Part shown: one piece after another, positions 1 to 17,188 of the stretch | Layout of the letters: every line of letters starts with the position of its first letter | Position numbering within the stretch: position 1 is the stretch's first letter | Source of the DNA: Betaproteobacteria bacterium | GTDB lineage: Bacteria > Pseudomonadota > Gammaproteobacteria > Burkholderiales > Casimicrobiaceae | Length of the DNA stretch: 43,593 bases | Direction: 5' to 3' | Assembly: GCA_013298455.1 (NCBI GenBank) | Contig: JAAFHR010000001.1 | Span: 1 to 43,593 of the forward strand | Program-made: the position numbers and the translations under genes | Notes under the pieces: model-generated | The model's database searches: none | What the model saw: the letters and a program-made list of their open reading frames with translations, nothing else | Told to the model about the DNA's origin: nothing

Positions 1-81
1 ATGCAGCACGCTTGATGTTGCTGCGAACAAGATTACCGCTGCCGTGGAGACACTCAATCTCGCTATTTGCATCGCTCGCAT
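1..81 (-). CDS. 5' end of a probable secreted protein (truncated by window edge)
   Basis: ATG at 81 preceded by AGGA; open frame MRAMQIARLSVSTAAVILFAATSSVLH runs off the window and looks like a Sec signal peptide; not in the ORF track. Confidence 0.55.
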   Translation of the reverse strand, partial: MRAMQIARLSVSTAAVILFAATSSVLH

Positions 82-191
82 GAAATTTCCTGTGTAAAGA
101 CGTAAGTTGCTGTGCCCCCCGACCAGGCTATTCTAATCGACAGACTAGTACAACTAACTATCCCAGCTGAGTGGTCAATTGAGGGCGATGC

Positions 192-221
192 AAAAAAAAG
201 GCGAGCCGCAGGCTCGCCTTT
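192..221 (-). terminator. Rho-independent terminator after the surface-layer gene
   Basis: Minus strand AAAGGCGAGCC-TGC-GGCTCGCC-TTTTTTTT, about 30 nt after the stop at 254. Confidence 0.9.
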
Positions 222-253
222 CAGGGTTACTGACACCGAAGTGTCAGCTTGTC

Positions 254-1855
254 TTAGAGTCCGCGCTGAATACGTGGATCAGACACAGAACGCGTGAAGC
301 GATGACCGTAAGCAGCCGCGAAGCTGGTAGAGGCGTTAGCCGTCTTCAGCTGTTGCACTGCGAAGCCAACTACTGGCAATCCGTAGTAAGTTGTTGCGTT
401 GCCCGTTGAAGGCGCGGCCGTGCTCTGGAGGTTGACGATCATCGTATTGCTGTTGGCCAGCATGTGGTACGAAGCCGATCCAGCGGTTCCACCTGGTGGG
501 AACGTCAAAGTTGCCCAGCCGCCCTCTTTGCCCGAACCATCGGCTACAGTTACGCCTTGGTTTTGAACAGCGTTGACCAGGTTAAAGAAGTTCTTCGAAC
601 CCAAAACGTTTGACTTCGCTGGATCCTTGATCTTACCGAAACCGAGCACGTTTGCTTCGTAGCACAGTGATGCATTAACAGTCAACAGCGAACCGCCGCC
701 GTCGCCCGCTCCTGCCGCACAGTCGGCTGTGTCGCCTTCTGGACGTGGCGAGAAGTCGTCTTCGGTAACACTGGTCGCCGAGTACTCTTCACGGTCAAAG
801 TCAGCCACAGAGAAATCGTCTTTCGACGTTTTCTTGTTCCAAACGCTTTGGAATGGCGCGATTGCCTTAGTCAACGACGTAGGGTTCGTGTAGAACCGCT
901 TCGTTGGCATCGTCAGAACCCAATCCGTACCAATGAGGTTGGAATTCAAATGCGCGTACTCATTCATGACCTTGTCGACCATGAGCGTTGCCGTGACAGA
1001 GTCACGACCTGCGTTAGCGCCAGTCCAGTTCGAAACGTAAACGTTTGAGCCGATCGACACGACCGAGTTGTAAGCACCCTTAAGACCACCGGCCAAGTTT
1101 GGATCGACCGAACCAGGCTGCGTGTAAATGACGTCTTCGTTCCAGTCAGCAAAAGCAACGGCGTTGTAGCCGCTGTTTGTGCCAGCACCTGGATTTACGA
1201 TGCTGCCAGAGCCAAACAGGCCACCGGTAGGATCATTCAGGGCCTTACTTGCTAAGACGGCGGTATGACCGACCAACTTACATGCTGGAGTCCAGCTGTT
1301 TGCTGAGGTGTGCTTTACGTCTTTCCAAAGATCTGATTCTGAATCGATATCGGCCATCTCGAGCATTTCGAGGTAGCCTTCGTTGGTGCGATCCAAGCCA
1401 GCATTCGCGCCGCCGTCGATCTTGTAAGCATCGTTACGGAAGGCAACGCCGTTAGGCTTGTCACGGAACGAAGGATTGGTGCAGCTACGATCGCTAACGT
1501 AAAGCGCTGCGCCGCCCACCGTTGGGGTGATGCCGGGAGCAAAGTACGAGCTCGCCGTCGCGGAAGCAACCAAGCCCGTCCATACGTCTTTCGGCGAAAG
1601 GAACAGGTTGAAGTCCAATACCTCTTGCGAGTTCTTGCCTTCAAGGAAGCGAACTTTAACGATCTTAGCTTGATCCGAAGTGTTTACTACAGACAGAAGC
1701 GTGCTGTTGCCATCACGGACGGTGTAGTAAGGATAAATCAGCGCTTGACCGATACCATCTGCGTTAACGTAAACCGCGTTTGCGGCACCTGCCAACGCAA
1801 ATGCACTTGCGCCTGCTACCGCTACCGCGAGCGATTTTTTCTTAAATGTATTCAT
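254..1855 (-). CDS. Putative S-layer / major cell-surface protein (NpdA-like family)
   Basis: Sec signal (MNTFKKKSLAVAVAGASAFALAGAANA|V); motifs GQALIYPYYTV, VVNT, KVRFLEGKNSQEVLDFNLFLSPKDVW, TDWVLTMPTK, GLPVVGF typical of beta/gammaproteobacterial surface-layer proteins; A/G/S/T/N-rich; strong RBS and terminator. Confidence 0.75.
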   Translation of the reverse strand: MNTFKKKSLAVAVAGASAFALAGAANAVYVNADGIGQALIYPYYTVRDGNSTLLSVVNTSDQAKIVKVRFLEGKNSQEVLDFNLFLSPKDVWTGLVASATASSYFAPGITPTVGGAALYVSDRSCTNPSFRDKPNGVAFRNDAYKIDGGANAGLDRTNEGYLEMLEMADIDSESDLWKDVKHTSANSWTPACKLVGHTAVLASKALNDPTGGLFGSGSIVNPGAGTNSGYNAVAFADWNEDVIYTQPGSVDPNLAGGLKGAYNSVVSIGSNVYVSNWTGANAGRDSVTATLMVDKVMNEYAHLNSNLIGTDWVLTMPTKRFYTNPTSLTKAIAPFQSVWNKKTSKDDFSVADFDREEYSATSVTEDDFSPRPEGDTADCAAGAGDGGGSLLTVNASLCYEANVLGFGKIKDPAKSNVLGSKNFFNLVNAVQNQGVTVADGSGKEGGWATLTFPPGGTAGSASYHMLANSNTMIVNLQSTAAPSTGNATTYYGLPVVGFAVQQLKTANASTSFAAAYGHRFTRSVSDPRIQRGL

Positions 1856-1936
1856 CTTAGATTTGACTCCTCTGCTTGAGATTTTGAGTGATCACTATAG
1901 AACCAACAGCAATAGTTATTTTGTGGTACTGAGCGA

Positions 1937-1966
1937 ATGATACACGAGGCTCGCTGCGGCTGTCTA
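1937..1966 (-). promoter_or_regulatory. Putative sigma70 promoter of the surface-layer gene
   Basis: Minus strand TAGACA-18 nt-TATCAT; RBS AGAGGAG at 1873-1867. Confidence 0.45.
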
Positions 1967-1970
1967 GTCT

Positions 1971-2423
1971 TTATTGCCTAACAAAGAACACGTCGCCTTC
2001 TTCCAGCACCCAACGCTCCTGAGCCGGAACAGCAACCTGCCGCCCGCTTACCCGCTGCATCGCTACCGTTACCATCACCTCTAGGTTTACGGTACAGCTT
2101 GTCGCAGCGCACTTTACATCGACAACTTTAGCATTTGCCGCGCGCAACGAATCCACGTGGCGCTTGATCATCGCCTCGGGATAGTCGATTCGGGATGCCT
2201 TGGAATAGAGCGCAAACGCAGCACTGGTGCGGCCTGCGATCGCATCTGCCCAACGCTGTGCAGCGCGCTCAGCGGTGCGCTTTTCCCACTTGGCAGCATC
2301 ATCGGCCATGGATACTGGCACCGACGTGCAACCAGAAAGCTGAGCAACCGACGCAAGCGCCACGAGCGCTGCAATTAGGGTTGCACGTGAACAATTTTGA
2401 GTTCCAATGTGTGTTGTGTACAT
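1971..2423 (-). CDS. Lipoprotein of unknown function between secretin and S-layer gene
   Basis: Hydrophobic stretch ending in lipobox LSG|C; ERAAQRW...ERWVLEEG pattern; starts 14 nt after the gspD stop. Confidence 0.8.
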   Translation of the reverse strand: MYTTHIGTQNCSRATLIAALVALASVAQLSGCTSVPVSMADDAAKWEKRTAERAAQRWADAIAGRTSAAFALYSKASRIDYPEAMIKRHVDSLRAANAKVVDVKCAATSCTVNLEVMVTVAMQRVSGRQVAVPAQERWVLEEGDVFFVRQ

Positions 2424-2437
2424 ACAACAGTCCTGAG

Positions 2438-4786
2438 TTATTGTGAGCTCTTTTGCTGCGTCACGCCGCCCGCATCGAGCCGAAGCGAACGCGCGAAGTC
2501 AGCCGGAATGGCCGGAGTGGGCGGTTTGGCGTCTAAGCGCAAGTTTTCTGCGCGCCGAGCCGCTTTGACTTCAGCCGACGACGGCTGATCGAGTGTTCCG
2601 ACGGCTGGCAAGAGCATCTCGATGTTTTGCATCTTTCGTCGCAGCTCGTCAACGGCGTCGCGCGTGTCCTCAACCGTCGACAGGATTCGGGGGGTGATTA
2701 GCATCACCACTTCCGTGCGCGAGTTGTTCCAGCGTTGTTTGCCGAAGAGCGCGCCAAGCACGGGAATGGTCGACACAATAGGCAATCCTTCGGAGCCTAC
2801 CCCGCCGGTCTCTGTGAATAGGCCTCCCATGAGCATGGTGTCGCCGTTGGTGACCATGACGTTGGTTGACTGTGAATTCTGGGTGATGGGTGGGTTTGGG
2901 TTGTCGCCTTTTGCGACCCCGGGGGAGCTGTTTTGCTGTTGAATTTCGAGAAACACATTGTTGCCACTCACGCGCGGCGTCACGGTAAGCGTCAGCCCAG
3001 TATTTATGTATTGAAACGAATTAATCGCCGACGTGTTGGTCGTCGCAGCAGCCTGCTGTGTTTGAACGGAAATCTGGCTACCGTTTGTAAATGTGACTTT
3101 CTGATTGTCCAGAGTGACCAGAACTGGCGAAGCCAACGTGCGCGCCTGACTTTTTGCCTGTAGCGTATCAAGTGTCGCCTTAACGCCCGCCGCCGCACCA
3201 GCGCCTTGCCAGACGTAGCGAAAGCCGCTGGCGCTGTTGGATCCAGCGCCAATGTTTGACGACAATTGATTGAGAGTAGATCCCGGATTCTTCAGGAAAT
3301 CGGCGGCAAAGCCAAAGCTCACGGAGTTGTCGAGCGTGACCTCAGCGATCTGCACCTCGATAGCAACCTGCTTGGGAGCAGTATCAAGTTTCTTGATTGC
3401 TGATTCAATTGCCGAGTACTCACTCGGCGTCGCAACGATCAACAGAGCATTTCGATCCTTGTCTGCGATCACTGTCGCATTTCGCGCGAGCCCAATCTGA
3501 CCTTGCCCCGCCGCTGCCGAATTTGCGGCGGTCGGTCTTGGCGTGCCAGCAGCAGCCACGTTTCCTGGGGTCACAATCGACTGGCCGGCGATAGGGCTCT
3601 GCGGCGCACCGATCACACTCTGCTGCTGACCGGGTGCAACGGTCGCTTGCGCTGCGGTTTGTGCGCGTCCGGACAGCGCTTGCTGCAGCACAGCTTGCAG
3701 CTTTTCGGCCTGCGTGTATTGCAACGTGTAGACGTAAAGGCGCGCACCTCCACCCGCATCGTTACCGCTATCGAGCCGCTCAATCAATCGCTGCGCCTCC
3801 TTGACGACGTCGGGGTTGGGAGAAATCACCAATAATGAGTTCATCCGTTCGATGGGAATGAGACGAACCAACCCGGCCAACGGATTAGCGTTCGCCGGAA
3901 ATATTCGCTCCCAATCCTGAACCACCGTTTTTACCTCTGCGCTCTGTAGAGGGTAAATCACAAACGACATGCCAGACAACAAGTCAACGTCAAACATCTC
4001 AGCGACATCGACCAAATGTCGCAACTCATTCTCAGTGCCAAAAAGGAACAACAGATTACGAACTTCGTCTACTCGGATCGCAGCCTCGGGTTGCTTCGCA
4101 AATGGTTTGATGAGTCGCTCAAGCTCTTTTGCCCCGATGTACTTGACCGGCAGGATGACAACGCTATTACCCGGCCCCAGCACCCGCGCGTTCACCCGCG
4201 GAATCAGATTCCCCGGAACAGCCTCGGCAGCGGGAAGCACTTTCCAGAAGCTGCCGTCACGCACCAGCGCGAAATTGGCGCTGCGTAGCAACATTTCGAG
4301 CGTAGGAATGAGCTCGGACCGAGCTAGCGGCTTTGGCGTGCGTACCGTAATGGTGCCGCTTACCGACGGATGCAAGATCACGTTCTCTTGAAGGGTTTTC
4401 TCGAGGATATCTTTAATTAGCTCCCGAAGATCGCCGTTCTCCAAATTCAAACTGATAGGCGCACCGTCAGTGGCAGGACGAGCGGCGCGCGCGCGCGGAG
4501 CCTTGACGAGCTCGCCCGTGCCAAGCGAGACATAAGGCTCGGACTTGCGCGCCGTGTCAGTTGGAGCCTGCGGCAAATCGACTGGAGCGACTATCGGTTG
4601 ACTCGCTACAGGCCTCGGCGAAAGGTTGCTCGAACCCGGAGCGGGCTGCACGGTGTCTGCCGGCGAAGACGCGCAACCGACGAGCTGCACGATGAGCGTG
4701 ATCGTGATTGAGAGGAGGAATCCGCGCGAGAAGCGCGGGGTTTTCCGCGACAAGTCGCTGAAAACGGGCGGAAGACTAGGCATCAT
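2438..4786 (-). CDS. gspD: Type II secretion secretin GspD (XpsD-like, with lipobox)
   Basis: N0 motif SLNLENGDLRELI, N-domain repeats, secretin core (QVAIEVQIAEV, GLPIVSTIPVLGALF, TEVVMLITPRI); LVG|C lipobox. Confidence 0.95.
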   Translation of the reverse strand: MMPSLPPVFSDLSRKTPRFSRGFLLSITITLIVQLVGCASSPADTVQPAPGSSNLSPRPVASQPIVAPVDLPQAPTDTARKSEPYVSLGTGELVKAPRARAARPATDGAPISLNLENGDLRELIKDILEKTLQENVILHPSVSGTITVRTPKPLARSELIPTLEMLLRSANFALVRDGSFWKVLPAAEAVPGNLIPRVNARVLGPGNSVVILPVKYIGAKELERLIKPFAKQPEAAIRVDEVRNLLFLFGTENELRHLVDVAEMFDVDLLSGMSFVIYPLQSAEVKTVVQDWERIFPANANPLAGLVRLIPIERMNSLLVISPNPDVVKEAQRLIERLDSGNDAGGGARLYVYTLQYTQAEKLQAVLQQALSGRAQTAAQATVAPGQQQSVIGAPQSPIAGQSIVTPGNVAAAGTPRPTAANSAAAGQGQIGLARNATVIADKDRNALLIVATPSEYSAIESAIKKLDTAPKQVAIEVQIAEVTLDNSVSFGFAADFLKNPGSTLNQLSSNIGAGSNSASGFRYVWQGAGAAAGVKATLDTLQAKSQARTLASPVLVTLDNQKVTFTNGSQISVQTQQAAATTNTSAINSFQYINTGLTLTVTPRVSGNNVFLEIQQQNSSPGVAKGDNPNPPITQNSQSTNVMVTNGDTMLMGGLFTETGGVGSEGLPIVSTIPVLGALFGKQRWNNSRTEVVMLITPRILSTVEDTRDAVDELRRKMQNIEMLLPAVGTLDQPSSAEVKAARRAENLRLDAKPPTPAIPADFARSLRLDAGGVTQQKSSQ

Positions 4787-5547
4787 TGTGTTTGACCAAA
4801 CCTCGCGCGACGACGCGCTTCGATGAACGCATCGGCGTTCGCTGTGGTGTGCGGCATGCCGTTGGGCAGCGGCCGTTCTGAAATCAGGGCGTTCACGTCG
4901 CGACCGGCGGCCGGTACCGGAGCGGCCGGGGGCGTCACAGCGAGTTGCGGCGAAACGACGGGTGGCGCAGCGGAGGGGGGAGGCGCGGTCGCCTGCGGCG
5001 CTGAAGGCGGTGCTGGGGGTGCCGGCGCGGGTCGCTGAGGTACGCGACCTGAAGCAGTAAATTGGGGTAGCTCAAGTTCGTCGGTCTCGCCAGCAAACGC
5101 CAAAACGACACGGTTCGCGCCAATCGAGCGCACGGATAACTCGTTGAGAGTATCCCCCACTCGAACGCTTCGAACTCGATTGGTCTCCTTTTCGCGCAAT
5201 TGCGCGTATGGCGCGTTGCCCGCATCGATCACACCGATAACTTCGTACAACCCCCTCCGAATCTGCGGCTTCGGGGGTTCTGGGGCGACGGCGACGGCCG
5301 CTTGCGTGGGCGCGGGGCGGCGTGTGGGATTGAGCAATGGCCTCTCGGCGATTTGTGCGTAGGCGCTGGCGTCGGCTGAGAGTTTGAAATCCGGCAAAAC
5401 GGCGGCGCCGTCAGGCTTGGCGTTGGGCGCACGAAGGTTCACATCGGGCTCGGCGAGGCCTTGGCCCCAGTCGGTTGCCCAGCCGAGTGCGCCGAGTAGT
5501 GCTACAGCGAGAACGGTGAGTAATTTTTGAAGCGTGGTGAGGCTCAT
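4783..5547 (-). CDS. gspN: T2SS protein XpsN/GspC-like
   Basis: N-terminal TM helix, ERPLLNPTRRP motif, HR-like beta domain, Pro-rich tail; lies between gspM and gspD as in xps operons. Confidence 0.65.
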   Translation of the reverse strand: MSLTTLQKLLTVLAVALLGALGWATDWGQGLAEPDVNLRAPNAKPDGAAVLPDFKLSADASAYAQIAERPLLNPTRRPAPTQAAVAVAPEPPKPQIRRGLYEVIGVIDAGNAPYAQLREKETNRVRSVRVGDTLNELSVRSIGANRVVLAFAGETDELELPQFTASGRVPQRPAPAPPAPPSAPQATAPPPSAAPPVVSPQLAVTPPAAPVPAAGRDVNALISERPLPNGMPHTTANADAFIEARRRARFGQTQ

Positions 5548-6170
5548 GATTTCACCGGTGTCGAGGCTGTGCTACCCGCGCCTTGGGAGGGCGTTCTCGG
5601 TACAACTTTTGCACCGTAGGCCTGTACTTCAAGTTGAGCGGACACCTCGGGCTCTTGATTGGGCTGGGGCTTGAAACCGCGCGGGACGGTCGCTCGCAAG
5701 GTCAGGTTTTCAATGAACAGATACGGCAGCGCGGTCTCGATGGCGTAGAGCGTTTTCTGGACGTTTGCTGGCGTGCCATTGAAGCCGATGTTGAGCGAGT
5801 ACACGCGGTAGCCGGAGTCCTCTCTCACCGTGGCAGGCTGAATCGAAGTGAGCCGCGCGCCATTGGATTCGATCATGGGCCGAACCAGATCGGTGAGCTC
5901 GGCACCTGCTGCGGTGGGGATCACGTTTTTGAGGTAGAAACGAGCGCCTTCGCGGGCTTTTAGCACGTCGAGCGCCCGTTGATGTTCGGGCTTATGCGCG
6001 GCCAACTTTTGATAGCGCTCAATCTTTTCTTCGGCGGCGGCGCTGACCCGATCGTAGCGCTGATGCAGCACGTACGCGGGCCATGCGATCGCCGCAACAA
6101 CGGCGCAGACGCACAGCAACGCTAGCGCCAGCGCCAAAGTTCGCCCTTTGCTGCCGGTGGGCAATATCAT
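5544..6170 (-). CDS. gspM: T2SS protein GspM (XpsM-like)
   Basis: Single TM, coiled coil, LYAIETALPYLFIENL motif; 4-nt overlaps with neighbours. Confidence 0.85.
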   Translation of the reverse strand: MILPTGSKGRTLALALALLCVCAVVAAIAWPAYVLHQRYDRVSAAAEEKIERYQKLAAHKPEHQRALDVLKAREGARFYLKNVIPTAAGAELTDLVRPMIESNGARLTSIQPATVREDSGYRVYSLNIGFNGTPANVQKTLYAIETALPYLFIENLTLRATVPRGFKPQPNQEPEVSAQLEVQAYGAKVVPRTPSQGAGSTASTPVKS

Positions 6171-7549
6171 TGTTTTCTCTCCGGCGCTGCGCCAGGTGTC
6201 ATCGCTGCGGGGCTAGGCGCGGGCGCGACTTTCGTGCTGTCTGCTTTTGTACTGGTTGCGCCCGAAGCCAACGGAGCTGGCACAGCGGGGTTCGGCGGCT
6301 TCGCGCCGTCTGCAGGGGATTTCGGTGCGTCGGCTGCGGTTGATTTTGGGGTCTCAGGGACCTTACCTGCAGTTAGCGGCGCTCCCGCCGCACTGCTCGG
6401 GGCGACTTGCATCGGCGTACCAAGTAACGTGGCGGAATCGGCCAAAGTCATGCCCGCTGGGGCTGCGACACTCACCAATTCACCGGCGAAATGAAAGCGT
6501 TCGGCGTTCGGCGCCACACGAGTCATCGCGGCTTTCAACACCGGCTCTTTGAGCAACGATGATTCCTGAACGATTTGCAAAAGCTTCGCGCCGCTGCCGG
6601 TTTCGCCCTGCACGATCACTTCGCGCGTCTTGCTGTTGGCTTGCGGTTTGATTTCGAATGACTGCGCCCAGGTGTCGTCGGGCAAGCGCTTGCCGATGTC
6701 TTCGAGCACTTGCACGGCAATCGGAGTGGCGTGCTTGCGTTTGAGCAACAGGTTGTATTCACCGAGCTGCTTATCGAGCTGGCGCTGAATCACCGTGGCG
6801 GTTTCAGCTTCAGCACGAGCCGCCGTTTCCATGGGCATTAGCGCGATCACATACTGGCGCTTTTTAAAGATCGGGTACGCCACCAGAGCAATTACGAGCC
6901 CCAGGCAGAGCAGCGCCAGCAGCGGGGTGAGCCAGTTCGATTTGGTTGCGTCCGCGGGTTGCTTTCGTGACAACTTAAACAAGTCAATGCCGTGGTCAAC
7001 GTCGGTCGTTGAGAGCGCGAGTCGATCGACGCCTGCGCCCAACTCGCGTGCCTCTTTGATCATCGCATCGACCCGCGCCTTGGGCGCAGCGAGCACCTCG
7101 GCCACACAAATGCCTTTGGCATTGTCACGGCGTAGCACTCGAAAATCATAGTACAGGTCGTCGGGCTTGAGCGGCGTCAATCGATCAAGCTCAAAGGCCA
7201 ACACTTGCGCGAGCCGATCCTCAACGGTGATCGGAAGCGCTACTTCACGCCGGAATCCGTTTCGCTCGCCAATGAGCAGCGTGGCGGGCTTGAGTTTCGA
7301 GGCGTCGCCCGAGAGCAATTTGTTACGAGCGAGCGGCGCGCTATCGCCAAAATCCGCGCCGCTGGGCCAAATTTTTCCGTCAGCTATCGACAGCAGCAGC
7401 GGCCGCGCGCCACGCTGAGAGCGCTGACGGATGCCGCTTGGGATGCATTCGATCAGATGTTGCTTCCACCACTTGAGAAAATGCGCCCCCGATGCGGCGT
7501 TATAGCCGTCGCTCACGGGCAGAGCCGCGTTGGGTGGCACGCTACTCAT
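6167..7549 (-). CDS. gspL: T2SS protein GspL (PilN-like periplasmic domain)
   Basis: FLKWWKQHL and FELDRLTPLKPDDLYYD motifs, central TM, LPDDTW PilN-like motif; Pro/Ala-rich tail. Confidence 0.85.
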   Translation of the reverse strand: MSSVPPNAALPVSDGYNAASGAHFLKWWKQHLIECIPSGIRQRSQRGARPLLLSIADGKIWPSGADFGDSAPLARNKLLSGDASKLKPATLLIGERNGFRREVALPITVEDRLAQVLAFELDRLTPLKPDDLYYDFRVLRRDNAKGICVAEVLAAPKARVDAMIKEARELGAGVDRLALSTTDVDHGIDLFKLSRKQPADATKSNWLTPLLALLCLGLVIALVAYPIFKKRQYVIALMPMETAARAEAETATVIQRQLDKQLGEYNLLLKRKHATPIAVQVLEDIGKRLPDDTWAQSFEIKPQANSKTREVIVQGETGSGAKLLQIVQESSLLKEPVLKAAMTRVAPNAERFHFAGELVSVAAPAGMTLADSATLLGTPMQVAPSSAAGAPLTAGKVPETPKSTAADAPKSPADGAKPPNPAVPAPLASGATSTKADSTKVAPAPSPAAMTPGAAPERKQ

Positions 7550-8526
7550 CGGGTCGAACCCTGAGCGGGCTGAATGACGCTGTCACCTGCAACGCTAGGG
7601 CGGGTGGCCTCGCGGCCACGTTGCCAGAGGTAAAACTGCGGGCGGGCTTCAGCGGTTGTATTGACGCGAACGGAGGCTTCGCGCGTGGCGCGAAGGCCGT
7701 CGGCAGATCGCGCCTCGGCGGAAATGCGCACAGAGCTTCCGCCGGTGGCGAAGTAAGGGCTAGAAAACGGGATCGCAGGTACGGAGATGCCCTCTTGCAG
7801 CGCGGCGTCTCGCTCAGACACCCACGATTGCACGAGCGAGGCATCGAGCCCGGGCACCATAGAGAGCAAGGCGCCCGAGGCCGTCATGGGATCGACACCT
7901 GCCGAGCGCGATTGCACTGTCAGGTAGGGCGCTACAGCCGAAAAAATCTGCGGGGTCACACCCATCACGTTTTGTAGTTCCTCGATTGCGATAAAAAAGT
8001 CGTTACTGGGCACAGTTTTCTTGCCCGAGGCACGGTAGTCGTCGGCTTCAGCCCCATTGGGCCGCTTTAGATTATCAGCGTCCGTCCAATCTTTGACGGC
8101 CGCCACGATGTTCACCGCGTCCTCTTCGGCAACCCCGGCGCTGGCGAATACATTTTTGAGTAGCGCTTCGGCAGCAAAGTTCAAATCGATTTTAGCAGCC
8201 TCATTGCGGGCTGAAACCGCGATTTGAAAGCCGTTTTCGGTCATTTCATGCGTCATTCCGTTGGCTTTCCACTGGGCCAGTGCGAGCGTTGCGTCAGCAG
8301 CACGGGGGCGAGCGAGCTCAAAAAGCATCCGATGAACAGCGCCATCCGCCGCAGCTTGTAGCTTTGCAATCATCAGCGCGTTAGCGGTCATCTGCGTTGA
8401 TAGACGCTGCGATTCGCTAAACGGCAGCGCGATCAGCGATAGAAAAATCACGAGACCGAGCACGACCAGGAGCGCAATGCCGCGCTGGGCTTTGCGAGCA
8501 ATCCGGCGAAGACTAATACTCATCAC
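7546..8526 (-). CDS. gspK: T2SS minor pseudopilin GspK
   Basis: QRG|IALLVVL prepilin site lacking E5; KIDLN, DWTDAD, GAE, EELQNVMGV motifs. Confidence 0.92.
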   Translation of the reverse strand: MMSISLRRIARKAQRGIALLVVLGLVIFLSLIALPFSESQRLSTQMTANALMIAKLQAAADGAVHRMLFELARPRAADATLALAQWKANGMTHEMTENGFQIAVSARNEAAKIDLNFAAEALLKNVFASAGVAEEDAVNIVAAVKDWTDADNLKRPNGAEADDYRASGKKTVPSNDFFIAIEELQNVMGVTPQIFSAVAPYLTVQSRSAGVDPMTASGALLSMVPGLDASLVQSWVSERDAALQEGISVPAIPFSSPYFATGGSSVRISAEARSADGLRATREASVRVNTTAEARPQFYLWQRGREATRPSVAGDSVIQPAQGSTR

Positions 8527-9269
8527 TGCCGCCTAACGCTGCCATCGATTTGGCAGCGCTGCTTGCTGAAATCGAAGTTACAACCCACCGCTTGGGTGAT
8601 TTTGAGCGGCACTACCAAATCGGGCCAGCGATAGCCGCCGGTTTCGGTCACGCGGATTTTCACGAGCGATGGCATCCGCGAGATTTCGTCCCAACTCTCC
8701 ACCCAGTTGCCGCCGTCGGGCTGCAGCACGGGATCGTCGCCCGGATCAAAGTACGACAGCGCCAAGGTATCGATCCGATCTGCCAAAACAATGGCTTCGC
8801 CCGATTTCACATCGGGCACGTCTTTGGTCTCCGGATCTTGTGGCAGGCGTTGCAACACCAACTGCCGCTTCTGCGCTAGGTCACGCACCGAGAGCTGCCA
8901 CCAAAGCACGCCGCCCTCAGCGATGTAGGACGTGACCGGCGCAAGGTAGGTGATGCTGTCGCTGCGACCATTGAATTTCAGGGGCTGGTTGAGCTCGCGC
9001 CGCCACCGAAGCGGCAGCGTGTTGGCGATGTGTTCGCTCAGAAACGCGTGGGTGCGGGTGTACTGTTCGCTGCGCTCGTTCGATGTGGTGGTGGCCGTTG
9101 TGCTCTGCTCGGCGTTTCTGACCGTGCCGAGCAGGATCGTGGCCAAAAGCGCAAAGAGGATCATCGCAGCGAGCACTTCGATGAGGGTGAAGCCGCGTAG
9201 GTGTTGCGCGCTGCCGCTCCCACTGCGGGTGAAAAACCTTACGGCCGTGTGATCGTTCACCGCTTTCAT
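8523..9269 (-). CDS. gspJ: T2SS minor pseudopilin GspJ
   Basis: RG|FTLIEVL prepilin site; W..SW...MPSLVKI...WP C-terminal motif; operon position. Confidence 0.88.
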   Translation of the reverse strand: MKAVNDHTAVRFFTRSGSGSAQHLRGFTLIEVLAAMILFALLATILLGTVRNAEQSTTATTTSNERSEQYTRTHAFLSEHIANTLPLRWRRELNQPLKFNGRSDSITYLAPVTSYIAEGGVLWWQLSVRDLAQKRQLVLQRLPQDPETKDVPDVKSGEAIVLADRIDTLALSYFDPGDDPVLQPDGGNWVESWDEISRMPSLVKIRVTETGGYRWPDLVVPLKITQAVGCNFDFSKQRCQIDGSVRRQ

Positions 9270-9706
9270 TGCGCGAGGAGCGGCCTGGGCACGGCACGCA
9301 AGGTGGTGAGTTCGACCGAGCGCTGTTGATCAGTCGCTGAACGCGTCGCAGCGTTACCTGCGACGACTTTCGCGGTAACGCGCTTCAACAAATATGGAGG
9401 ACGAATCGGGTTGCCGGAATCCTCGAACGGTTCATCAACAACGGTGAGCGTCCAAGTCATGTTGTCGCCCGACGAACCTGATTCAACGCCTTCGGTGAGC
9501 GGTTTTTCAATCCCGGCGCTCGCCAATAAACTCTGAGCCAGCGTGCTCGCTCGCGACAAATCCGCAGCAACGCCCGCCGCTCGAGTGCCGCCCGAAAAAA
9601 CGCCAGCGAGTGCGGTCAAACACATCGCCGCAATCACGACCGCAACGATCACTTCGATCAAGGTAAAGCCTGATGCTCGGCGCGGCGAAACCATGGGCAA
9701 GCTCAT
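9266..9706 (-). CDS. gspI: T2SS minor pseudopilin GspI
   Basis: SG|FTLIEVI prepilin site; ELTTLR C-terminus; operon position. Confidence 0.88.
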   Translation of the reverse strand: MSLPMVSPRRASGFTLIEVIVAVVIAAMCLTALAGVFSGGTRAAGVAADLSRASTLAQSLLASAGIEKPLTEGVESGSSGDNMTWTLTVVDEPFEDSGNPIRPPYLLKRVTAKVVAGNAATRSATDQQRSVELTTLRAVPRPLLAQ

Positions 9707-10215
9707 GCGTCGTCAATGGCAACGCGTCCCGTTAACCAATCCACATCAATGCGAAATTCGCGCTCTTTGTTCTTGAGCGTCACTCGACCGCCGGTTGAGC
9801 CACCATCAGGATAGAAACGAATCGAGCCGCGCTTTTCATCTTTGGTCTCGGCCACTGTGGTCGTTAATTCCAGCGCAATGCCCTCGGGTAGCTTCGACTT
9901 TTTACGAGCGTCGGCCAATTGAAACGTACGTGATTCGAAATCGAATTCAACGCCCACGTCGATGCGTTTGGCAACGGCCTCGGTACGCGCGAAGCGAAGC
10001 ACCTGCGCCACTTGACGCGCCGCCGCGCGATGCTCAGCGCCGGTGACACCGGATGAAAAAAGCGGTGGTGATAGCGCTGCGACTAACGCCAGAACGATGA
10101 TGACCGCCAAGAGCTCCAACATCGTGAAGCCGCGCACTCGTTTGTGCGCAAAGCGCGCCCCCCTGAACGCCCCAATAAACGGCGCTTTCAGAGCATATCG
10201 GCCTGCGAAGTCCAT
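9703..10215 (-). CDS. gspH: T2SS minor pseudopilin GspH
   Basis: RG|FTMLELL prepilin site; IRFYPDGGSTGG and VDWLTGRV motifs. Confidence 0.9.
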   Translation of the reverse strand: MDFAGRYALKAPFIGAFRGARFAHKRVRGFTMLELLAVIIVLALVAALSPPLFSSGVTGAEHRAAARQVAQVLRFARTEAVAKRIDVGVEFDFESRTFQLADARKKSKLPEGIALELTTTVAETKDEKRGSIRFYPDGGSTGGRVTLKNKEREFRIDVDWLTGRVAIDDA

Positions 10216-10266
10216 TTTATAAGGCGTTCAGCGTAGGCGGTTTTAGCGTGTAACAGCACAAAACCG

Positions 10267-10713
10267 TTAGCTCTTAACGATGTCGGCGTTTTCGCCTTCG
10301 CCGCCTTCTTTGCCATCAGCGCCCAATGACTTGAGCTCAAACGGCGTGTTGTTAGGGCCAGGCACGGTGTACTTGTAATCGTTCGACCATGGGTCTTTGA
10401 TGTTGTCTTTGCGCAGGTACGGGCCATTCCAGTTGCTCAATCCGCCCGGATTTTTGAGGAGCGCTTCGAGCCCTTCTTGCGAGCTGGGGTAGCGGCCAAT
10501 TTCGAGCTTGAACAAATCAAGCGACTGCACCATTTGGCCCATTTCGGTACGCGCAGCGCCAGCTTTCGCTTTCTCGGTTTGCCCTAAGAATCGAGAGCCA
10601 ATCGTTGCCGCCAACACGCCAATAATGACGATCACCGCCAAGAGCTCCATCAAGGTGAAGCCCTTCTGGGCGGTGCGCAGCGCGCGCAGTGCGGATTTGT
10701 TTTGTAGGTTCAT
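10267..10713 (-). CDS. gspG: T2SS major pseudopilin GspG
   Basis: KG|FTLMELL, GRYPSSQEGLEAL, WNGPYL, DPW, SLGADGKEGGEGENADI; start moved to ATG 10713 behind GGAGA RBS. Confidence 0.96.
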   Translation of the reverse strand: MNLQNKSALRALRTAQKGFTLMELLAVIVIIGVLAATIGSRFLGQTEKAKAGAARTEMGQMVQSLDLFKLEIGRYPSSQEGLEALLKNPGGLSNWNGPYLRKDNIKDPWSNDYKYTVPGPNNTPFELKSLGADGKEGGEGENADIVKS

Positions 10714-10767
10714 TGTGTTCTCCAAGTCTCGATATCCATCAGGGGCAGAGGGGCTATGACTGCGCCG

Positions 10768-12003
10768 CTAGCCGTTAAATTCCGTTAATCCGAGCAATGC
10801 GCTAAGAAGCGCGTAAATAATGCCGCCAACAACCACAGCGAGCGTGACGATGAGCACCGGCTCCATCAACGCGAGCGCCCGTTTGAGCGATGTGTTGACT
10901 TCAACGTCATACACGTCGGCGACCTTCATCAGCATGCTGTCGAGCCGACCGGTTTCCTCGCCCACGGCCACCATGTGTACTGCGAGCTTGGGATACAAGC
11001 CCGTTTCCATCAATGGCCGCGCGAAACCTTGGCCCTCTTTGAGCCGCGCCAACACACCGTCGAGCGAATTGGCGAGCGCTCGATTGTCGATCGTATCTTT
11101 CACGATGGTGAGCGCGGGCAGCAGGCTCACGCCGTTGCCCAAGAGCGTACCGAGCGTACGGGCGAAACGCGCGACTTCGATTTTGCGAAACAAATCGCCA
11201 ATCACCGGCATCGTGAGCTTTCGCAAGTGCCATTTCAGCTCGCCCGCAGGTGTGCGCATCCGGCCGCGAATCAACACGATCAGCGCGACCACGCCCAGAA
11301 TAATCATCCAGCCGTCGTTACGCATAAATTGCGACATCGCGAGCAGATTCTCTGTAGCGGGCGGAAGCGCTTTGCCGAATTGCCGAAACGTTGCCTCAAA
11401 CTTGGGCACCACAAAAAAGATCATCACCAGCACGGCAATCACTGCAACTGCGACCAAAATCACCGGATACAACAGCGCCGATTGCACGTTAGACCGAAGC
11501 TCAGCGCTGCGCTCTTGAAACTCGGAGATTCGTGCGAGCACCGGACCGAGCGAGCCGCTAGCTTCACCAGCGCGCACCATATTCACATAGAGCCGATCAA
11601 AGTGTTTTGGATGCTCGGCGAGCGCTTGCGATAGCGCTTTACCGCCGCGAACGCGATCACGAATGTCTTGCATCATCACGGCCATCGGGCCGGATTCAGC
11701 GAGCGACGTGAGGAGCTCAAACGCGCGATCGAGCGGCAATCCAGCAGACACCAAATTCGATAAATCGCGAGTGAACGCGATGACTTGTTCGCGGGTGACT
11801 TTCCGAGGGCGGAGCAATTGTCCGATAAAACTTTTGCGCTCGTTTTGCGCGGCAATCGCGGCCTGTGCAGCAGGCTTGATGCCAAGCAAAATAAGCCCTT
11901 GTTCGCGCACGCGCTCAACGGCTTCAGCCTCGGTTACCGCTTCAATCTGCGCCGAAACCGATTCGCCCGACGCGCGGACGGCTTGAAATGCGAACAGTGC
12001 CAC
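10768..12003 (-). CDS. gspF: T2SS inner membrane platform protein GspF
   Basis: Duplicated GspF domains (YVNMVRAGEASG, MVAVGEETG) with TM segments. Confidence 0.96.
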   Translation of the reverse strand: MALFAFQAVRASGESVSAQIEAVTEAEAVERVREQGLILLGIKPAAQAAIAAQNERKSFIGQLLRPRKVTREQVIAFTRDLSNLVSAGLPLDRAFELLTSLAESGPMAVMMQDIRDRVRGGKALSQALAEHPKHFDRLYVNMVRAGEASGSLGPVLARISEFQERSAELRSNVQSALLYPVILVAVAVIAVLVMIFFVVPKFEATFRQFGKALPPATENLLAMSQFMRNDGWMIILGVVALIVLIRGRMRTPAGELKWHLRKLTMPVIGDLFRKIEVARFARTLGTLLGNGVSLLPALTIVKDTIDNRALANSLDGVLARLKEGQGFARPLMETGLYPKLAVHMVAVGEETGRLDSMLMKVADVYDVEVNTSLKRALALMEPVLIVTLAVVVGGIIYALLSALLGLTEFNG

Positions 12004-12010
12004 CGCTTAC

Positions 12011-13783
12011 CTAGCCTTCGCGCGTTGCACGCAACACTTCTTCGATGGTGGTGATGCCCGCGAGCACTTTGCGCAAACCGTTGTCGTACATCGGCTGCAT
12101 GCCCTCTTCGAGCGCGGCTTTACGAATCTCTCCGGCGTTGGATTTCTTCATGATCAAACGACGCAAGCTTTCGGTGAGCGGCATGAATTCAACGATGCAA
12201 ATTCGTCCGGTGAAGCCGGTGTTGGAGCATTGCTGGCAGCCGACCGGTTTGTACATGATGGGTTCGCCGCCCTGCAGCATGCGATCAAGTCCGATTTCTT
12301 TGACGAATTCTGGCGCGGGTGTGTAGGCTTGTTTGCAGTGATCGCAAAGGGTGCGCACCAAGCGCTGCGCCAACACGCCAACGAGCGTGCTGGTGAGCAA
12401 ATAGTCTTCCACGCCCATATCGAGCAACCGAGACACCGTGGCTGGCGCGTCGTTGGTGTGCAAGGTCGAGAGCACCAAGTGACCGGTAAGCGCTGCTTGA
12501 ATAGCGATTTCAGCGGTTTCCAAATCGCGAATCTCACCGATCATGATCACATCGGGATCTTGGCGAACGATCGAGCGAAGCGCGTTGGCGAAGGTCAAAT
12601 CAATTTGCGGTTTGACCTGAATTTGATTGATGCCCGCCATTTGATATTCAACAGGATCTTCGACCGTCAAAATCTTTACGTCGGGCTTATTGAGCTGATC
12701 GAGCGCGGTGTAGAGCGTGGTCGTTTTGCCGCTACCAGTAGGGCCGGTGACGAGCAAGACGCCGTTGGGTTGCGCGAGCGCCGCTTCGAAGCGAGCGAGC
12801 AAATCCGGCTCGAAACCCAACTTTTGGAAATTGAGCGCGACGCCGCCTTTGTCGAGAATACGCATCACGACGCTCTCGCCGTGCATCGTGGGCACAGTCG
12901 ATACACGCAGATCAATCTCTTTGCCTTGAATGCGCAAACGAATGCGTCCGTCTTGCGGCAAACGGCGCTCGGCAATATCCAAGTTCGCCATGATTTTGAT
13001 CCGCGAAATCACCGCAGCGGCCAAGCGCTTCGGTGGCGATTCAATTTCGTGCAGCACGCCGTCAATGCGATATCGAACGATCAAACGGTTCTCAAACGGC
13101 TCGATGTGAATATCCGACGCGCGCGCTTCGAGCGCGTTGGTCATGATGAGGCTCACCAGTCGAATCACAGGCGCTTCCGAGGCCAAATCTTTGAGCTGCT
13201 GAACGTCTGCACCGAGCGCTTCGCCTTCGAATTGCGCTTCTAAATTGCCATCAGAGAGCTGTGCGACTTGCGTGCGCCCGCCGCCGTAAAGCCGCTCAAT
13301 CGCAGCGTCGACTTCGGAGCCCACAGCGACTACGCGCTGCACCTTGCGGCTGGTAACGAGTTCAAACGAATGCAGCGCGAAATCGTCGTACGGATCGGCC
13401 ACGGCGAGCGTTAACGCATCGTGGCTTTCCTCAACGGGAAGCGCACGGGCATCGCGCAAAAAGCGCGGCGAAATTTTCTCTTCGAGAATCGGGATTTCGG
13501 GGAAGGCGGAAGCTTCGACGAACGGCAAGCCAGATTGTGCGGCGAGCGCTTGTGCGATGTCTCGGGCGGACACCACGCCAAGCGTGGTCAGGAGCGAGCC
13601 GAGCTTTTCGCGGGTGCTGCTTGAAGCTTGCAGTCGAAGCACGCGATCAAGTTCTGCCGGATCAATTTTGAGGCGTTGCAGCAGAATTTGCCCGAGCGGC
13701 ACCCGAGCGCGGGGTTCTTCGTGCTGGAACTGCGGTTCGATCTGCGTTTCTGTGTCGGCGATTTCCACCCGGCGGCCTTGCAT
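12011..13783 (-). CDS. gspE: T2SS ATPase GspE with extended N-terminal (MshEN-like) domain
   Basis: Walker A GPTGSGKTT, EDPVE, RQDPDVIMIGEIRD, His box, CxxC...CxxC zinc motif. Confidence 0.97.
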   Translation of the reverse strand: MQGRRVEIADTETQIEPQFQHEEPRARVPLGQILLQRLKIDPAELDRVLRLQASSSTREKLGSLLTTLGVVSARDIAQALAAQSGLPFVEASAFPEIPILEEKISPRFLRDARALPVEESHDALTLAVADPYDDFALHSFELVTSRKVQRVVAVGSEVDAAIERLYGGGRTQVAQLSDGNLEAQFEGEALGADVQQLKDLASEAPVIRLVSLIMTNALEARASDIHIEPFENRLIVRYRIDGVLHEIESPPKRLAAAVISRIKIMANLDIAERRLPQDGRIRLRIQGKEIDLRVSTVPTMHGESVVMRILDKGGVALNFQKLGFEPDLLARFEAALAQPNGVLLVTGPTGSGKTTTLYTALDQLNKPDVKILTVEDPVEYQMAGINQIQVKPQIDLTFANALRSIVRQDPDVIMIGEIRDLETAEIAIQAALTGHLVLSTLHTNDAPATVSRLLDMGVEDYLLTSTLVGVLAQRLVRTLCDHCKQAYTPAPEFVKEIGLDRMLQGGEPIMYKPVGCQQCSNTGFTGRICIVEFMPLTESLRRLIMKKSNAGEIRKAALEEGMQPMYDNGLRKVLAGITTIEEVLRATREG

Positions 13784-13874
13784 TGTTTATTTTCGGGACA
13801 ACCCTGAGATTCTAGTTGGGCGGGAAGGTTCACCTACAATCTCGCCGTTTCACTCCATTTTCGACCGGAATTTC

Positions 13875-14039
13875 ATGAAAAAGTACATGTGCCTGATCTG
13901 CGGCTGGATTTACGACGAAGCCGAGGGTTGCGCCGACGACGGTATCGCCGCGGGCACCAAGTGGGACGACGTGCCGATCAATTGGACCTGCCCGGAGTGC
14001 GGCGCGAGGAAAGACGATTTCGAGATGGTCGAGATTTAG
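13875..14039 (+). CDS. Rubredoxin
   Basis: 54 aa MKKYMCLICGWIYD...WTCPECG; two CxxCG motifs; TACAAT at 13835-13840 upstream; the longer ORF from 13344 is a shadow extension. Confidence 0.95.
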   Translation: MKKYMCLICGWIYDEAEGCADDGIAAGTKWDDVPINWTCPECGARKDDFEMVEI

Positions 14040-14049
14040 CGCTTCGCTA

Positions 14050-14087
14050 AGGACGAGAGGACGAAGGACGACGTTTCGCTAGGACGC
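14050..14087 (+). repeat. Short tandem AGGACG(A) repeats
   Basis: AGGACGAG AGGACGA AGGACGA ... AGGACGC, with TTCGCT(A)AGGACG occurring twice. Confidence 0.55.
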
Positions 14088-14281
14088 GAGCAGACTTCGT
14101 TGCTTGATTTTGCTTTTGGCTGATTGAGTGGGCGCTTTAAAGAATAAGGGCTTTATCTCATATTATTGGTCTATCAAAGCTTCGCTTCATCGGCTTGGAC
14201 GCCACAACTCGGTTGACGTTCATTGAAAAAGTTGGTTTGGATGTTTGTCGCCCGGTGTCTGATCGTGACGACGCGATGCTT

Positions 14282-14354
14282 GTAGGCGACGACCTGGCAT
14301 CGCTTCGTGGAATGACGAGCACGCCCACGCAAGCGCGCCCAGGTGCGCGCCTAC
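14282..14354. repeat. GTAG-family REP inverted pair (REPIN-like)
   Basis: GTAGGCGACGACCTGGCATCGC on + and GTAGGCGCGCACCTGGGCGCGC on -, between convergent genes. Confidence 0.55.
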
Positions 14355-14361
14355 CGCGCAG

Positions 14362-15243
14362 CTAGGCGATCAGGTAGTGATCCGCGAGCAGCGCTGCAAA
14401 GAGCAGCGACAAATAGGTGAGTGAATAGCGAAACACCGCTTTTGATTTTTGATCGGTGTAATCGTTTTTCAGATTCCAGACGAGCTGAATGAATCTGAGC
14501 CCTAGGATCACGGCAGCGGCGGCGTAGAGCCAGCTGTTCATTCGAATCGCTACGGGTAGCAGCGAGACGCCGAGCAAAATGAACGTGTAGAGCAGCATGT
14601 TGAGTAGCGTGAAATCGCGACCATGCGTGATCGGGAGCATTGGCAGGCCCGATTTTTCATAATCGTCGACTCGGTACAGCGCCAGCGCCCAAAAATGCGG
14701 CGGCGTCCAAGCGAAGATGATGAGAAACAGGAGGAGCGGCGGGGCGCTCACGTCGTTGGCGACCGCTGTCCAGCCAAGCACCGGCGGCATTGCGCCCGCC
14801 GCACCGCCGATCACGATGTTTTGCGGTGTGTTGGGCTTCAGGTACAGCGTGTAAATGAACGAATAACCAAAGAACGTGGCCAAAGTGAGCGCCCACGTTA
14901 AGACGTTGGTCGTGACGATCAAGACAGCGCTGCCGAGGGCGCCAAGGATTAACGCAAAGATCACAATTTGCATCGTTGAGAGCGCGCCCGAGGCCGACGG
15001 CCGCCAATCGGTGCGCTTCATTTTGGCGTCGACCGTCGCTTCGAGTAAGCAATTCATCGCGAAGCTCGCACCCGCCAGAAGCCAAATGCCGATGCAGCCA
15101 CCGACCACGACCGACCAAGGCGGAAACGCTTGATCCACGAGCAGCATGCCGATGAATGACGTGAACACCGCCAAGAGCGTGACGCGCGGCTTGGTGACCG
15201 TCCAGAAGTCGCGCCAAGAGGATTGGGATGTGGGATTAGACAT
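14362..15243 (-). CDS. cyoE: Protoheme IX farnesyltransferase (heme O synthase)
   Basis: TKPRV, DAKMKRTDWRP, LKPNTPQNIVIGGAAGAMPP, WTPPHFWALA; start set at ATG 15243 because the longer ORF begins in a repeat. Confidence 0.96.
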   Translation of the reverse strand: MSNPTSQSSWRDFWTVTKPRVTLLAVFTSFIGMLLVDQAFPPWSVVVGGCIGIWLLAGASFAMNCLLEATVDAKMKRTDWRPSASGALSTMQIVIFALILGALGSAVLIVTTNVLTWALTLATFFGYSFIYTLYLKPNTPQNIVIGGAAGAMPPVLGWTAVANDVSAPPLLLFLIIFAWTPPHFWALALYRVDDYEKSGLPMLPITHGRDFTLLNMLLYTFILLGVSLLPVAIRMNSWLYAAAAVILGLRFIQLVWNLKNDYTDQKSKAVFRYSLTYLSLLFAALLADHYLIA

Positions 15244-15292
15244 GGGCAAGCTCCGAGTGGCGCGCGTCGCCGTGAGTTGCCGACCGTGAAGT

Positions 15293-15392
15293 CCCCTCCC
15301 CTTCAAGGGGAGGGTTAGGGTGGGGATGGTTTTTGGTTCGAACGCCGCAGAAAACCATCCCCCTCCCAGCCTCCCCCTTGAAGGGGGAGGGG
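15293..15392. repeat. Palindromic REP/MITE-like element (CCCCTCCCC-TTCAAGGGGAGG family)
   Basis: About 42-bp imperfect inverted arms 15293-15334 and 15351-15392, each with an internal hairpin. Confidence 0.85.
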
Positions 15393-15434
15393 CAGCGCGG
15401 CGCTACTCTGCTCATTGCGTTCGCCTGCATCATC

Positions 15435-16729: not shown

Positions 16730-16750
16730 TCGGGGTCCTACAATGGCGAG

Positions 16751-16957: not shown

Positions 16958-17140
16958 CGGTTTCCTTGATCGCCTTTGGCTTTTAAAGCCTCGTGTCATA
17001 AGGGTTTGAAGCCTATTCGATCCATTTTCGAAGCAGCGCCATGTATCTTTGCAGCCCTTATTGAATATGGCTTGCGTTCGTAAAGCTGTGCGTACAGCAT
17101 TGAGATATTCTGCGCTTTAATAAACGCCCCACCGACCAAC

Positions 17141-17167
17141 AAAAAAGCGGCGAATTCGCCGCTTTTT
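17141..17167. terminator. Bidirectional Rho-independent terminator
   Basis: AAAAAAGCGGCGAATTCGCCGCTTTTT palindrome between convergent DUF2909 and coxC. Confidence 0.88.
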
Positions 17168-17188
17168 CATTCGTAGTCAGTCGTTCGA

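What the first reader, a model, noticed from the sequence alone, without database searches (positions are those of the whole stretch)
254..13783. Candidate dedicated S-layer export machine: xps-type T2SS, lipoprotein and S-layer gene in one locus
Seen: a complete co-oriented, tightly coupled gspEFGHIJKLMND run is followed directly by a lipoprotein and a Sec-exported 533-aa protein with its own promoter-like sequence, strong RBS and strong terminator. Established: this gene order is the Xanthomonas xps order; Aeromonas S-layers are exported with dedicated T2SS components, whereas many Gram-negative S-layers use T1SS. Inference: this T2SS is specialised for exporting and assembling an NpdA-like S-layer, a little-studied betaproteobacterial system. 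No prepilin peptidase is in the cluster, so PilD would be borrowed from elsewhere.
Basis: partly seen in the sequence, partly recalled or inferred. Interest (0 to 1): 0.75.

Follow-up and report, generated by a model that had tools for sequence, protein, structure and literature searches.

The report
NpdA S-layer locus with partner lipoprotein
This stretch encodes a relative of the published bacterial coat protein NpdA behind the secretion machine that likely exports it, a layout already in print, plus a small unnamed lipoprotein predicted to bind the coat protein and likely swapped between strains together with it and the secretion pore.

Summary
Observation confirmed; the idea is right but published. 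The 533-aa protein is homologous to Paracidovorax citrulli NpdA (33% over 251 aa, profile E 1e-63). The npdA-gsp linkage and the dedicated-T2SS hypothesis are in PMC10765051, and this scan met such loci at least 8 times on other DNA. gspD lies upstream in 63 of 67 homologous loci. The genome has a second T2SS and one distant pilD. Strict dedication is unproven: 5 of 30 genomes keep this T2SS type without a detectable NpdA.

Two additions. (1) The 150-aa lipoprotein has an NTF2-like fold, precedes 71 of 73 homologues, stays with npdA when the T2SS is elsewhere, and is predicted to bind the S-layer protein (score 0.66, best control 0.00). (2) The assembly holds a second allele of the locus, likely from a co-assembled strain. 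Its inner gsp genes are close to the window's, while gspD, lipoprotein and S-layer gene have different ancestry. This looks like S-layer cassette swapping. New member of a known kind.

The parts
12011..13783 (-). gspE ATPase with MshEN domain
   Evidence: TIGR02533 677 bits, over cut-off; the only over-cut-off gspE in the assembly
10768..12003 (-). gspF; the second allele (contig C71) merges with the window inside this gene
   Evidence: PF00482, TIGR02120; last 30 bases of C71 match at about 11235-11265
10267..10725 (-). gspG major pseudopilin
   Evidence: TIGR01710 over cut-off; protein identical in both alleles
9703..10215 (-). gspH
   Evidence: PF12019; XpsH best NCBIfam hit, below cut-off
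9266..9706 (-). gspI
   Evidence: XpsI best hit, below cut-off
8523..9269 (-). gspJ
   Evidence: PRK08808 E 7e-24, below cut-off
7546..8526 (-). gspK
   Evidence: PF21687
6167..7549 (-). gspL (by position and weak PilN hit)
   Evidence: PF05137 E 7e-4, below cut-off
5544..6170 (-). gspM, xps subtype
   Evidence: PF10741, NF040576 over cut-off
4783..5547 (-). xpsN / GspC-like protein
   Evidence: NF041515 E 8e-11 and NF041470 E 8e-5, both below cut-off
2438..4786 (-). gspD secretin; first gene of the part whose ancestry differs between alleles
   Evidence: TIGR02517 over cut-off; AU test rejects grouping of the two alleles
1971..2423 (-). 150-aa NTF2-like lipoprotein, predicted partner of the S-layer protein
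   Evidence: lipobox; model pLDDT 89; NTF2-like matches Z about 11; complex score 0.66 vs best control 0.00
1937..1966 (-). sigma70-like promoter candidate
   Evidence: TAGACA-18-TATCAT, 10 of 12; count not above shuffles
1899..1910 (-). conserved leader motif before the S-layer gene
   Evidence: exact or with one change in the 20 genus genes printed as main copies, not seen in 7 orphan paralogues, by eye
254..1855 (-). NpdA-family S-layer protein, 533 aa, likely signal peptide 1-27
   Evidence: homology to P. citrulli NpdA; beta-rich model pLDDT 86.7
196..255 (-). hairpin plus intrinsic terminator
1..81 (-). start of a downstream secreted-looking ORF, cut by the contig end
   Evidence: relatives have a variable surface protein and a PPIase here

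Best explanation
The locus encodes an NpdA-family protein that likely forms the cell's S-layer and is likely exported by the adjacent xps-type type II secretion system, with the 150-aa lipoprotein predicted to bind its N-terminal domain and likely acting as its periplasmic chaperone and hand-over factor. Proposed steps: (1) the gene is likely transcribed strongly from its own promoter; (2) the protein crosses the inner membrane by Sec; (3) it folds in the periplasm, likely helped by the PPIase that follows the gene in relatives; (4) the lipoprotein holds it and delays polymerisation; (5) it leaves through GspD, with pseudopilins processed by the pilus-operon PilD; (6) it self-assembles outside. 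A second T2SS would carry other cargo. The gspD-lipoprotein-S-layer block is likely exchanged between strains by recombination in the conserved gspF-G flank. Shown: gene content, homology, linkage, discordant trees. Predicted: fold and complex. Inferred: export route, chaperone role, strain-level swap.
For: P0178 is named P. citrulli A1TUQ1/ABM34689.1, and its mature mass of 52,394 equals the paper's NpdA value. The window protein matches it at 33% over 251 aa (E 2e-26) and the family profile matches it at E 1e-63. The P. citrulli locus has the same order, a 139-aa lipoprotein homologue and a PPIase-like gene. gspD is upstream in 63 of 67 loci with at least 3 kb; the lipoprotein in 71 of 73 with at least 0.9 kb (79 loci kept of 565 candidates). 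In 401 Burkholderiales genomes, all 22 with a strong lipoprotein hit have it directly before an NpdA match. It stays with npdA where gspD is not adjacent (G104, L088, L089). Complex: score 0.66, best of 3 controls 0.00, contacts agree at least 81%, partner pLDDT at least 84; the mark was reached by 116 of 157 solved and 2 of 215 mismatched pairs, counts only rough with own alignments. Ten of 69 homologues lack a lipobox by regex, which fits a chaperone better than a lipid anchor. A second GspD/E/F set and GspG/I/J lie on other contigs. For the swap: one gspE and one xps secretin in 4 of 4 near-complete relatives; allele B runs into the single-copy peptidase that closes the locus in relatives; AU p 2e-66 (GspD) and 1.8e-4 (S-layer) against grouping A with B, while gspHIJKLM groups them.
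Against: No experiment shows export, a lattice or binding. Five of 30 genomes with a strong xps-type gspM have the full cluster but no NpdA or lipoprotein match, and their secretins nest among linked ones, so the machine can persist without NpdA. Four of 67 loci lack an upstream gspD hit. In 29 loci outside the genus the lipoprotein tracks GspD (partial r 0.53) more than the S-layer protein (0.26), the reverse of the genus result (-0.05 and 0.69). Predicted interface residues are not more conserved than average (0.49 vs 0.52; 0.35 vs 0.43). Read evidence for two strains is from one study at 2-4x depth.
Confidence: 0.7

Rival explanations
1. The lipoprotein binds the S-layer protein as a surface anchor: it is exposed on the outer membrane and tethers or nucleates the lattice, rather than chaperoning in the periplasm.
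For: Same complex prediction; lipobox in 59 of 69 homologues; one copy per genome, always before the main S-layer gene.
Against: Ten of 69 homologues lack a lipobox, including allele B. It has no evident strong RBS and sits in the gsp operon, so it is likely far less abundant than the coat (inference).
Confidence: 0.25
2. The lipoprotein is a pilotin for GspD, and its link with npdA is only gene order.
For: Outer-membrane-type lipoprotein directly after gspD; tracks GspD more than the S-layer protein in 29 non-genus loci. A GspD complex was not modelled.
Against: It stays with npdA when gspD is elsewhere (3 cases); it is absent from 5 intact xps clusters without NpdA; predicted S-layer complex; no GspD signal within the genus.
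Confidence: 0.12
3. The T2SS is a general cell-surface secretion system that exports the S-layer protein among several cargoes, so it is linked but not dedicated.
For: Five genomes keep the cluster without NpdA; orphan NpdA paralogues and large surface proteins are likely extra cargo; the published P. citrulli mutant removed both gspG genes, so it does not separate the systems (PMC10765051 passage).
Against: A second T2SS exists; GspD changes together with the S-layer gene, although linkage alone could cause that.
Confidence: 0.35
4. The second cassette (C71+C46) is a true duplication in one chromosome, or a contaminating contig from a sister species, not a strain allele.
For: Fragmented assembly, 506 contigs, 3.6% contamination; run X3 holds pieces of both; the C71-C46 overlap has mismatches.
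Against: Only one gspE, cyoE and closing peptidase. X2 has A-type contigs (2 differences where B has 83) and 6 of 30 bins of C46; X1 has the B-type gspG piece (18 differences, the B count) and 27 of 30 bins. Divergence rises smoothly away from gspF.
Confidence: 0.2

Closest known systems
NpdA S-layer protein and gsp1 cluster of Paracidovorax citrulli AAC00-1 and Delftia acidovorans Cs1-4 (PMC10765051, PMC3110197)
   Same: Homologous protein of the same length, signal peptide, no Pfam domain, upstream gsp cluster in the same order, small lipoprotein between gspD and npdA, second T2SS elsewhere.
   Different: About 26-33% identity, best in the N-terminal domain; Casimicrobium-like host (inferred from nearest named hits), a word absent from the paper's main text. 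The paper's text does not mention a lipoprotein; its Fig. S5 could not be read and may label it as one of the 12 gsp genes.
Slr4 of Pseudoalteromonas tunicata (PMC7821379) and Aeromonas VapA/AvsA with linked T2SS genes
   Same: S-layer gene next to T2SS genes, proposed (Slr4) or reported (VapA, via PMC10765051) as dedicated export.
   Different: Treated as separate protein families in the papers; homology to the window protein was not tested here.
Clostridioides difficile S-layer cassette (slpA, cwp66, secA2; PMC6254364 passages citing Dingle 2013)
   Same: S-layer gene, partner gene and a secretion gene at a fixed locus exchanged by recombination; some types add glycosylation genes, as allele B adds glycosyltransferase-like genes.
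   Different: Gram-positive, accessory Sec rather than T2SS, unrelated proteins; 13 types from over 1000 strains, against two alleles plus discordant trees here.
NTF2-like fold proteins (YchJ, PBP2a N-terminal domain, Cj 3k7c)
   Same: Fold of the small lipoprotein: Z 11.2, rmsd 2.5, 98 residues to 9vxg; many tied rows.
   Different: About 10% identity; fold only, no function transfer; no Pfam family over cut-off for the window protein, and DUF4864 only weakly in 9 of 69 members.

Membership tests
NpdA S-layer proteins | Sequence homology to P. citrulli NpdA | tested here: met
   P0178 mature mass 52,394 as in the paper; BLASTP 33%/251 aa E 2e-26; profile E 1e-63; 26% over 603 columns to the type-species copy
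NpdA S-layer proteins | Sec signal peptide of about 25 aa, mature mass about 52 kDa, no known domain | tested here: met
   Signal peptide judged by eye and alignment (no predictor run); mature 28-533 is 53.3 kDa; no Pfam or NCBIfam hit
NpdA S-layer proteins | Upstream gsp cluster | tested here: met
NpdA S-layer proteins | Forms a paracrystalline layer and SDS-resistant oligomers | not testable with these tools
   Needs cryo-EM and gels; no RNA holder listed for expression
xps-type T2SS | Complete E-F-G-H-I-J-K-L-M-N-D set with subtype-b GspM | tested here: met
   L and N assigned by weak hits and position; the Xanthomonas order is recalled, not fetched
Dedicated S-layer T2SS (Aeromonas-like) | Another T2SS exists for general cargo | tested here: met
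   GspD over cut-off with GspE/F on C467, GspG/I/J on C114; same D-E-F set in G008
Dedicated S-layer T2SS (Aeromonas-like) | Machine occurs only with the S-layer gene (one S-layer-linked clade) | tested here: not met
   5 of 30 strong-gspM genomes lack NpdA and lipoprotein matches; nested in the GspD tree
Dedicated S-layer T2SS (Aeromonas-like) | Mutant loses S-layer export but not other exoproteins | not testable with these tools
   experiment needed
T2SS pilotins (PulS/OutS, AspS; names recalled) | Known pilotin fold | tested here: inconclusive
   Top fold matches are NTF2-like; no pilotin among the rows shown, which does not exclude it
T2SS pilotins (PulS/OutS, AspS; names recalled) | Binds the secretin C-terminal tail | not tested
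   The one complex job went to the S-layer pair
Recombining S-layer cassette (C. difficile-like, by analogy) | Alternative alleles at one fixed locus with ancestry discordant from the flanks | tested here: met
   strain-level placement rests on short-read contigs
Slr4 | Sequence homology to EAR28894 | not tested
   No tool-provided sequence was obtained

The most novel reading that the evidence does not exclude
NpdA S-layers have a dedicated, so far unnamed NTF2-fold partner that binds the subunit's N-terminal domain and feeds it to the secretin. Secretin, partner and S-layer gene form a matched cassette that co-occurring strains of one species swap to change their coat, a Gram-negative T2SS counterpart of the C. 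difficile S-layer cassette.
Probability: 0.45. Interest if true: 0.62.

Novelty: new member of a known kind. Interest (0 to 1): 0.4.

Why it matters
The core is known. What could matter is the accessory protein. How a self-polymerising subunit is kept soluble in the periplasm and recognised by a T2SS is an open question, and a small protein with a predicted interface, also present in Delftia and Paracidovorax, makes it testable in culturable hosts. The cassette swap gives natural pairs of secretin and cargo on a shared inner machine, useful for mapping T2SS cargo specificity, and suggests coat switching under phage or predator pressure (inference).

Tried and rejected
Domain-level co-variation: within the genus GspD N1-N2 tracked the S-layer protein far better than the secretin core (0.57-0.58 vs 0.08-0.13; 17 loci). 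In 29 other loci this reversed (0.21 vs 0.49), so I reject it as evidence of co-adapted specificity; linkage explains the shared signal. The N/GspC signal fell from 0.59 to 0.18 when three rows were dropped. Sets used: 19 and 17 of 23 genus-level loci (incomplete loci and two near-duplicates dropped) and 29 of 66 other loci (complete gene sets only). Mantel p-values overstate because kin are not independent. No solved relative of the S-layer protein by sequence or Foldseek; best VIA-align Z 5.7 (TM1070, N-terminal domain); the C-terminal part was not folded alone. The Atlas look-ups returned nothing usable. No Rfam match in 1-16000; the leader does not fold better than shuffles. No RNA holder listed. 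Logan depth was too low and flat for copy number. The 291-aa secreted protein behind a lipoprotein-like gene in G382 is not shown to be NpdA-like (hhalign probability 0.6). The NpdA paper's supplement could not be read. Literature searches for a described lipoprotein partner found none (open-access library only). The gspM threshold of E 1e-12 was set after seeing the gap in scores.
Full report
1. Observation. The window is the first 43.6 kb of contig C1 of a fragmented 3.4-Mb assembly (506 contigs, 81% complete). The 13 minus-strand ORFs are as described. GspE, G, M and D pass curated cut-offs; the other Gsp proteins match below cut-off or by position; the 150-aa and 533-aa proteins match no Pfam or NCBIfam family. 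The RBS and terminator are clear, while the promoter match is not above chance. One pilD exists, after pilB-pilC on another contig, in this genome and once in each of 4 relatives. The nearest named homologues are from Casimicrobium, so the host is likely of that genus (inference).

2. The 533-aa protein is an NpdA homologue. A protein search gave 3203 hits among 7996 candidates scored. A 106-row profile reached 36 of 301 genomes of one Burkholderiales family and 18 of 21 in one genus of it. The hits are named cell surface protein in Delftia, Diaphorobacter, Lampropedia and Paracidovorax. P0178 (A1TUQ1_PARC0) has a mature mass of 52,394, the value given for NpdA in PMC10765051. The window protein aligns to it at 33% over 251 aa, E 2e-26, and the profile at E 1e-63. 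The model is confident and beta-rich (pLDDT 86.7, pTM 0.89), with no clear solved relative.

3. Linkage. It is, however, published: PMC10765051 describes 12 gsp genes upstream of npdA across Beta- and Gammaproteobacteria, two gsp clusters in P. citrulli, and proposes the mutant test. PMC7821379 proposes the same for Slr4. Eight earlier notes of this scan filed such loci under NpdA; I reached the identification before reading them.

4. Dedication. For: a second T2SS (GspD over cut-off, GspE, GspF; GspG, I, J on another contig) is present here, and its D-E-F set also in the complete relative G008. Against strictness: in 401 Burkholderiales genomes, 30 have a strong xps-type gspM; 22 have lipoprotein plus NpdA, 3 have a lipoprotein-like gene, in each case with a different secreted protein near it, and 5 have neither. 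Those 5 clusters look intact and nest among NpdA-linked secretins, which reads as loss of the cargo with retention of the machine. Absence means not found with these queries.

5. The small lipoprotein. It has a lipobox, a conserved cysteine pair and tryptophan, and an NTF2-like fold (pLDDT 89; Z about 11 to several tied entries). It precedes the S-layer gene in 71 of 73 loci with enough flank, in all 22 genomes with a strong hit and in all 16 Paracidovorax-genus loci checked. It remains beside npdA where gspD is elsewhere or not adjacent (G104, L088, L089). The predicted complex scored 0.66 against a best control of 0.00, with runs agreeing in at least 81% of contacts and partner pLDDT at least 84. 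That mark was reached by 116 of 157 solved and 2 of 215 mismatched pairs, roughly applicable here. The contact is between lipoprotein residues 81-95 and 113-136 and S-layer residues 51-55, 91-104, 119-121 and 216-227. This supports binding; it does not show it. Co-variation is split: S-layer-tracking in the genus, GspD-tracking outside it. Interface conservation is average or lower. I favour chaperone over anchor because 10 of 69 homologues lack a lipobox, but the margin is small. Searches found no paper describing it; the unread supplement of PMC10765051 may label it.

6. A second allele. Contigs C71 and C46 carry a second gspF'-G-H-I-J-K-L-M-N-D, small protein and 552-aa S-layer gene, followed by a 1451-aa surface-type protein, a PPIase, glycosyltransferase-like and methyltransferase genes. 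Identity to the window falls from 99-100% (F, G) through 83-92% (H-M) to 67% (N), 51% (D), 27% (small protein) and 41% (S-layer) on trimmed alignments; fourfold-site divergence rises from 0.16 to about 0.7. There is one gspE, C71 ends on bases identical to the window's gspF, and C46 reaches the single-copy peptidase that closes the locus in six relatives. Four of 4 near-complete relatives have one secretin of this type. In four runs of one study, C46 is covered in 27, 6, 20 and 8 of 30 bins; X1 shows the B form of gspG and X2 the A form of gspH-I; depth is only 2-4x and X3 holds both. Trees group A with B for gspHIJKLM but reject this for GspD and the S-layer protein, where A groups with G013. 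G020, 96% identical in GspE, carries a third type. The best reading is two co-assembled strains with alternative cassettes (about 0.8). The closest precedent is the C. difficile S-layer cassette (PMC6254364 passages); replacement genomic islands are a general concept (PMC4033161, search listing only).

7. Mechanism and verdict. Likely route: Sec export, periplasmic folding with lipoprotein and PPIase help, passage through the linked GspD, lattice assembly outside; PilD is borrowed. Gene content, homology, linkage and tree discordance are shown; fold and complex are predicted; the rest is inferred. The finding is a new member of a published system. The predicted partner and the cassette swap are the parts I did not find in print, and they raise interest modestly.

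8. Papers seen. PMC10765051: parts 1 and 4 of 7 and term passages, supplement unreadable. PMC7821379, PMC3110197, PMC6254364 and bioRxiv 10.1101/2025.04.15.648961: passages. PMC12175726: term search with no hits. The Xanthomonas xps order and pilotin names are recalled.

Noticed in passing
window 1899-1910 (minus strand): A 12-base motif about 45 bases before the S-layer start is kept across all main-locus genes of the genus printed (20) and not in 7 orphan paralogues; in related genera it is followed by a palindrome and preceded by a -10-like box. Possible regulator site or leader element; no Rfam match.
   Followed up: partly
L039, L040, L041 (G004, G023, G022): An N/GspC-like gene sits between gspD and the small protein; G022 has two copies, one before and one after gspD, as if the incoming cassette brought its own.
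   Followed up: partly
L202, L203, L204 (G326, G382, G217): A lipoprotein-like gene lies near a different 291-305 aa secreted protein, 8-14 kb from an xps-type gspM, with a PPIase-like gene downstream in two of them; candidate unrelated S-layer family.
   Followed up: partly
L023-L030 and G446, G464, G533, G726: Orphan NpdA paralogues, often in tandem and up to 5-6 matches per genome; the genus ones checked lack adjacent gsp genes and the small protein.
   Followed up: partly
G117:C13 27693-28681 and G338:C1 880665-882122: The NpdA gene appears split over frames or has stops while the lipoprotein is intact; pseudogene, phase variation or assembly error.
   Followed up: no
window 13872-14039 and 14362-22075: A rubredoxin gene and the cytochrome oxidase cluster form the fixed left flank of the locus across the genus.
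   Followed up: partly
window about 14280-14355 and 15290-15390: Short repeats with many copies on other contigs and many loose read ends, REP-like.
   Followed up: no
window 31114-35808: 1564-aa protein with a choice-of-anchor Q domain and paralogues on other contigs; possible surface adhesin.
   Followed up: no
L042 (G020): GspG is only 65% identical to the window's while gspE is 96% and gspH-M about 80%, suggesting a separate pseudopilin exchange.
   Followed up: no
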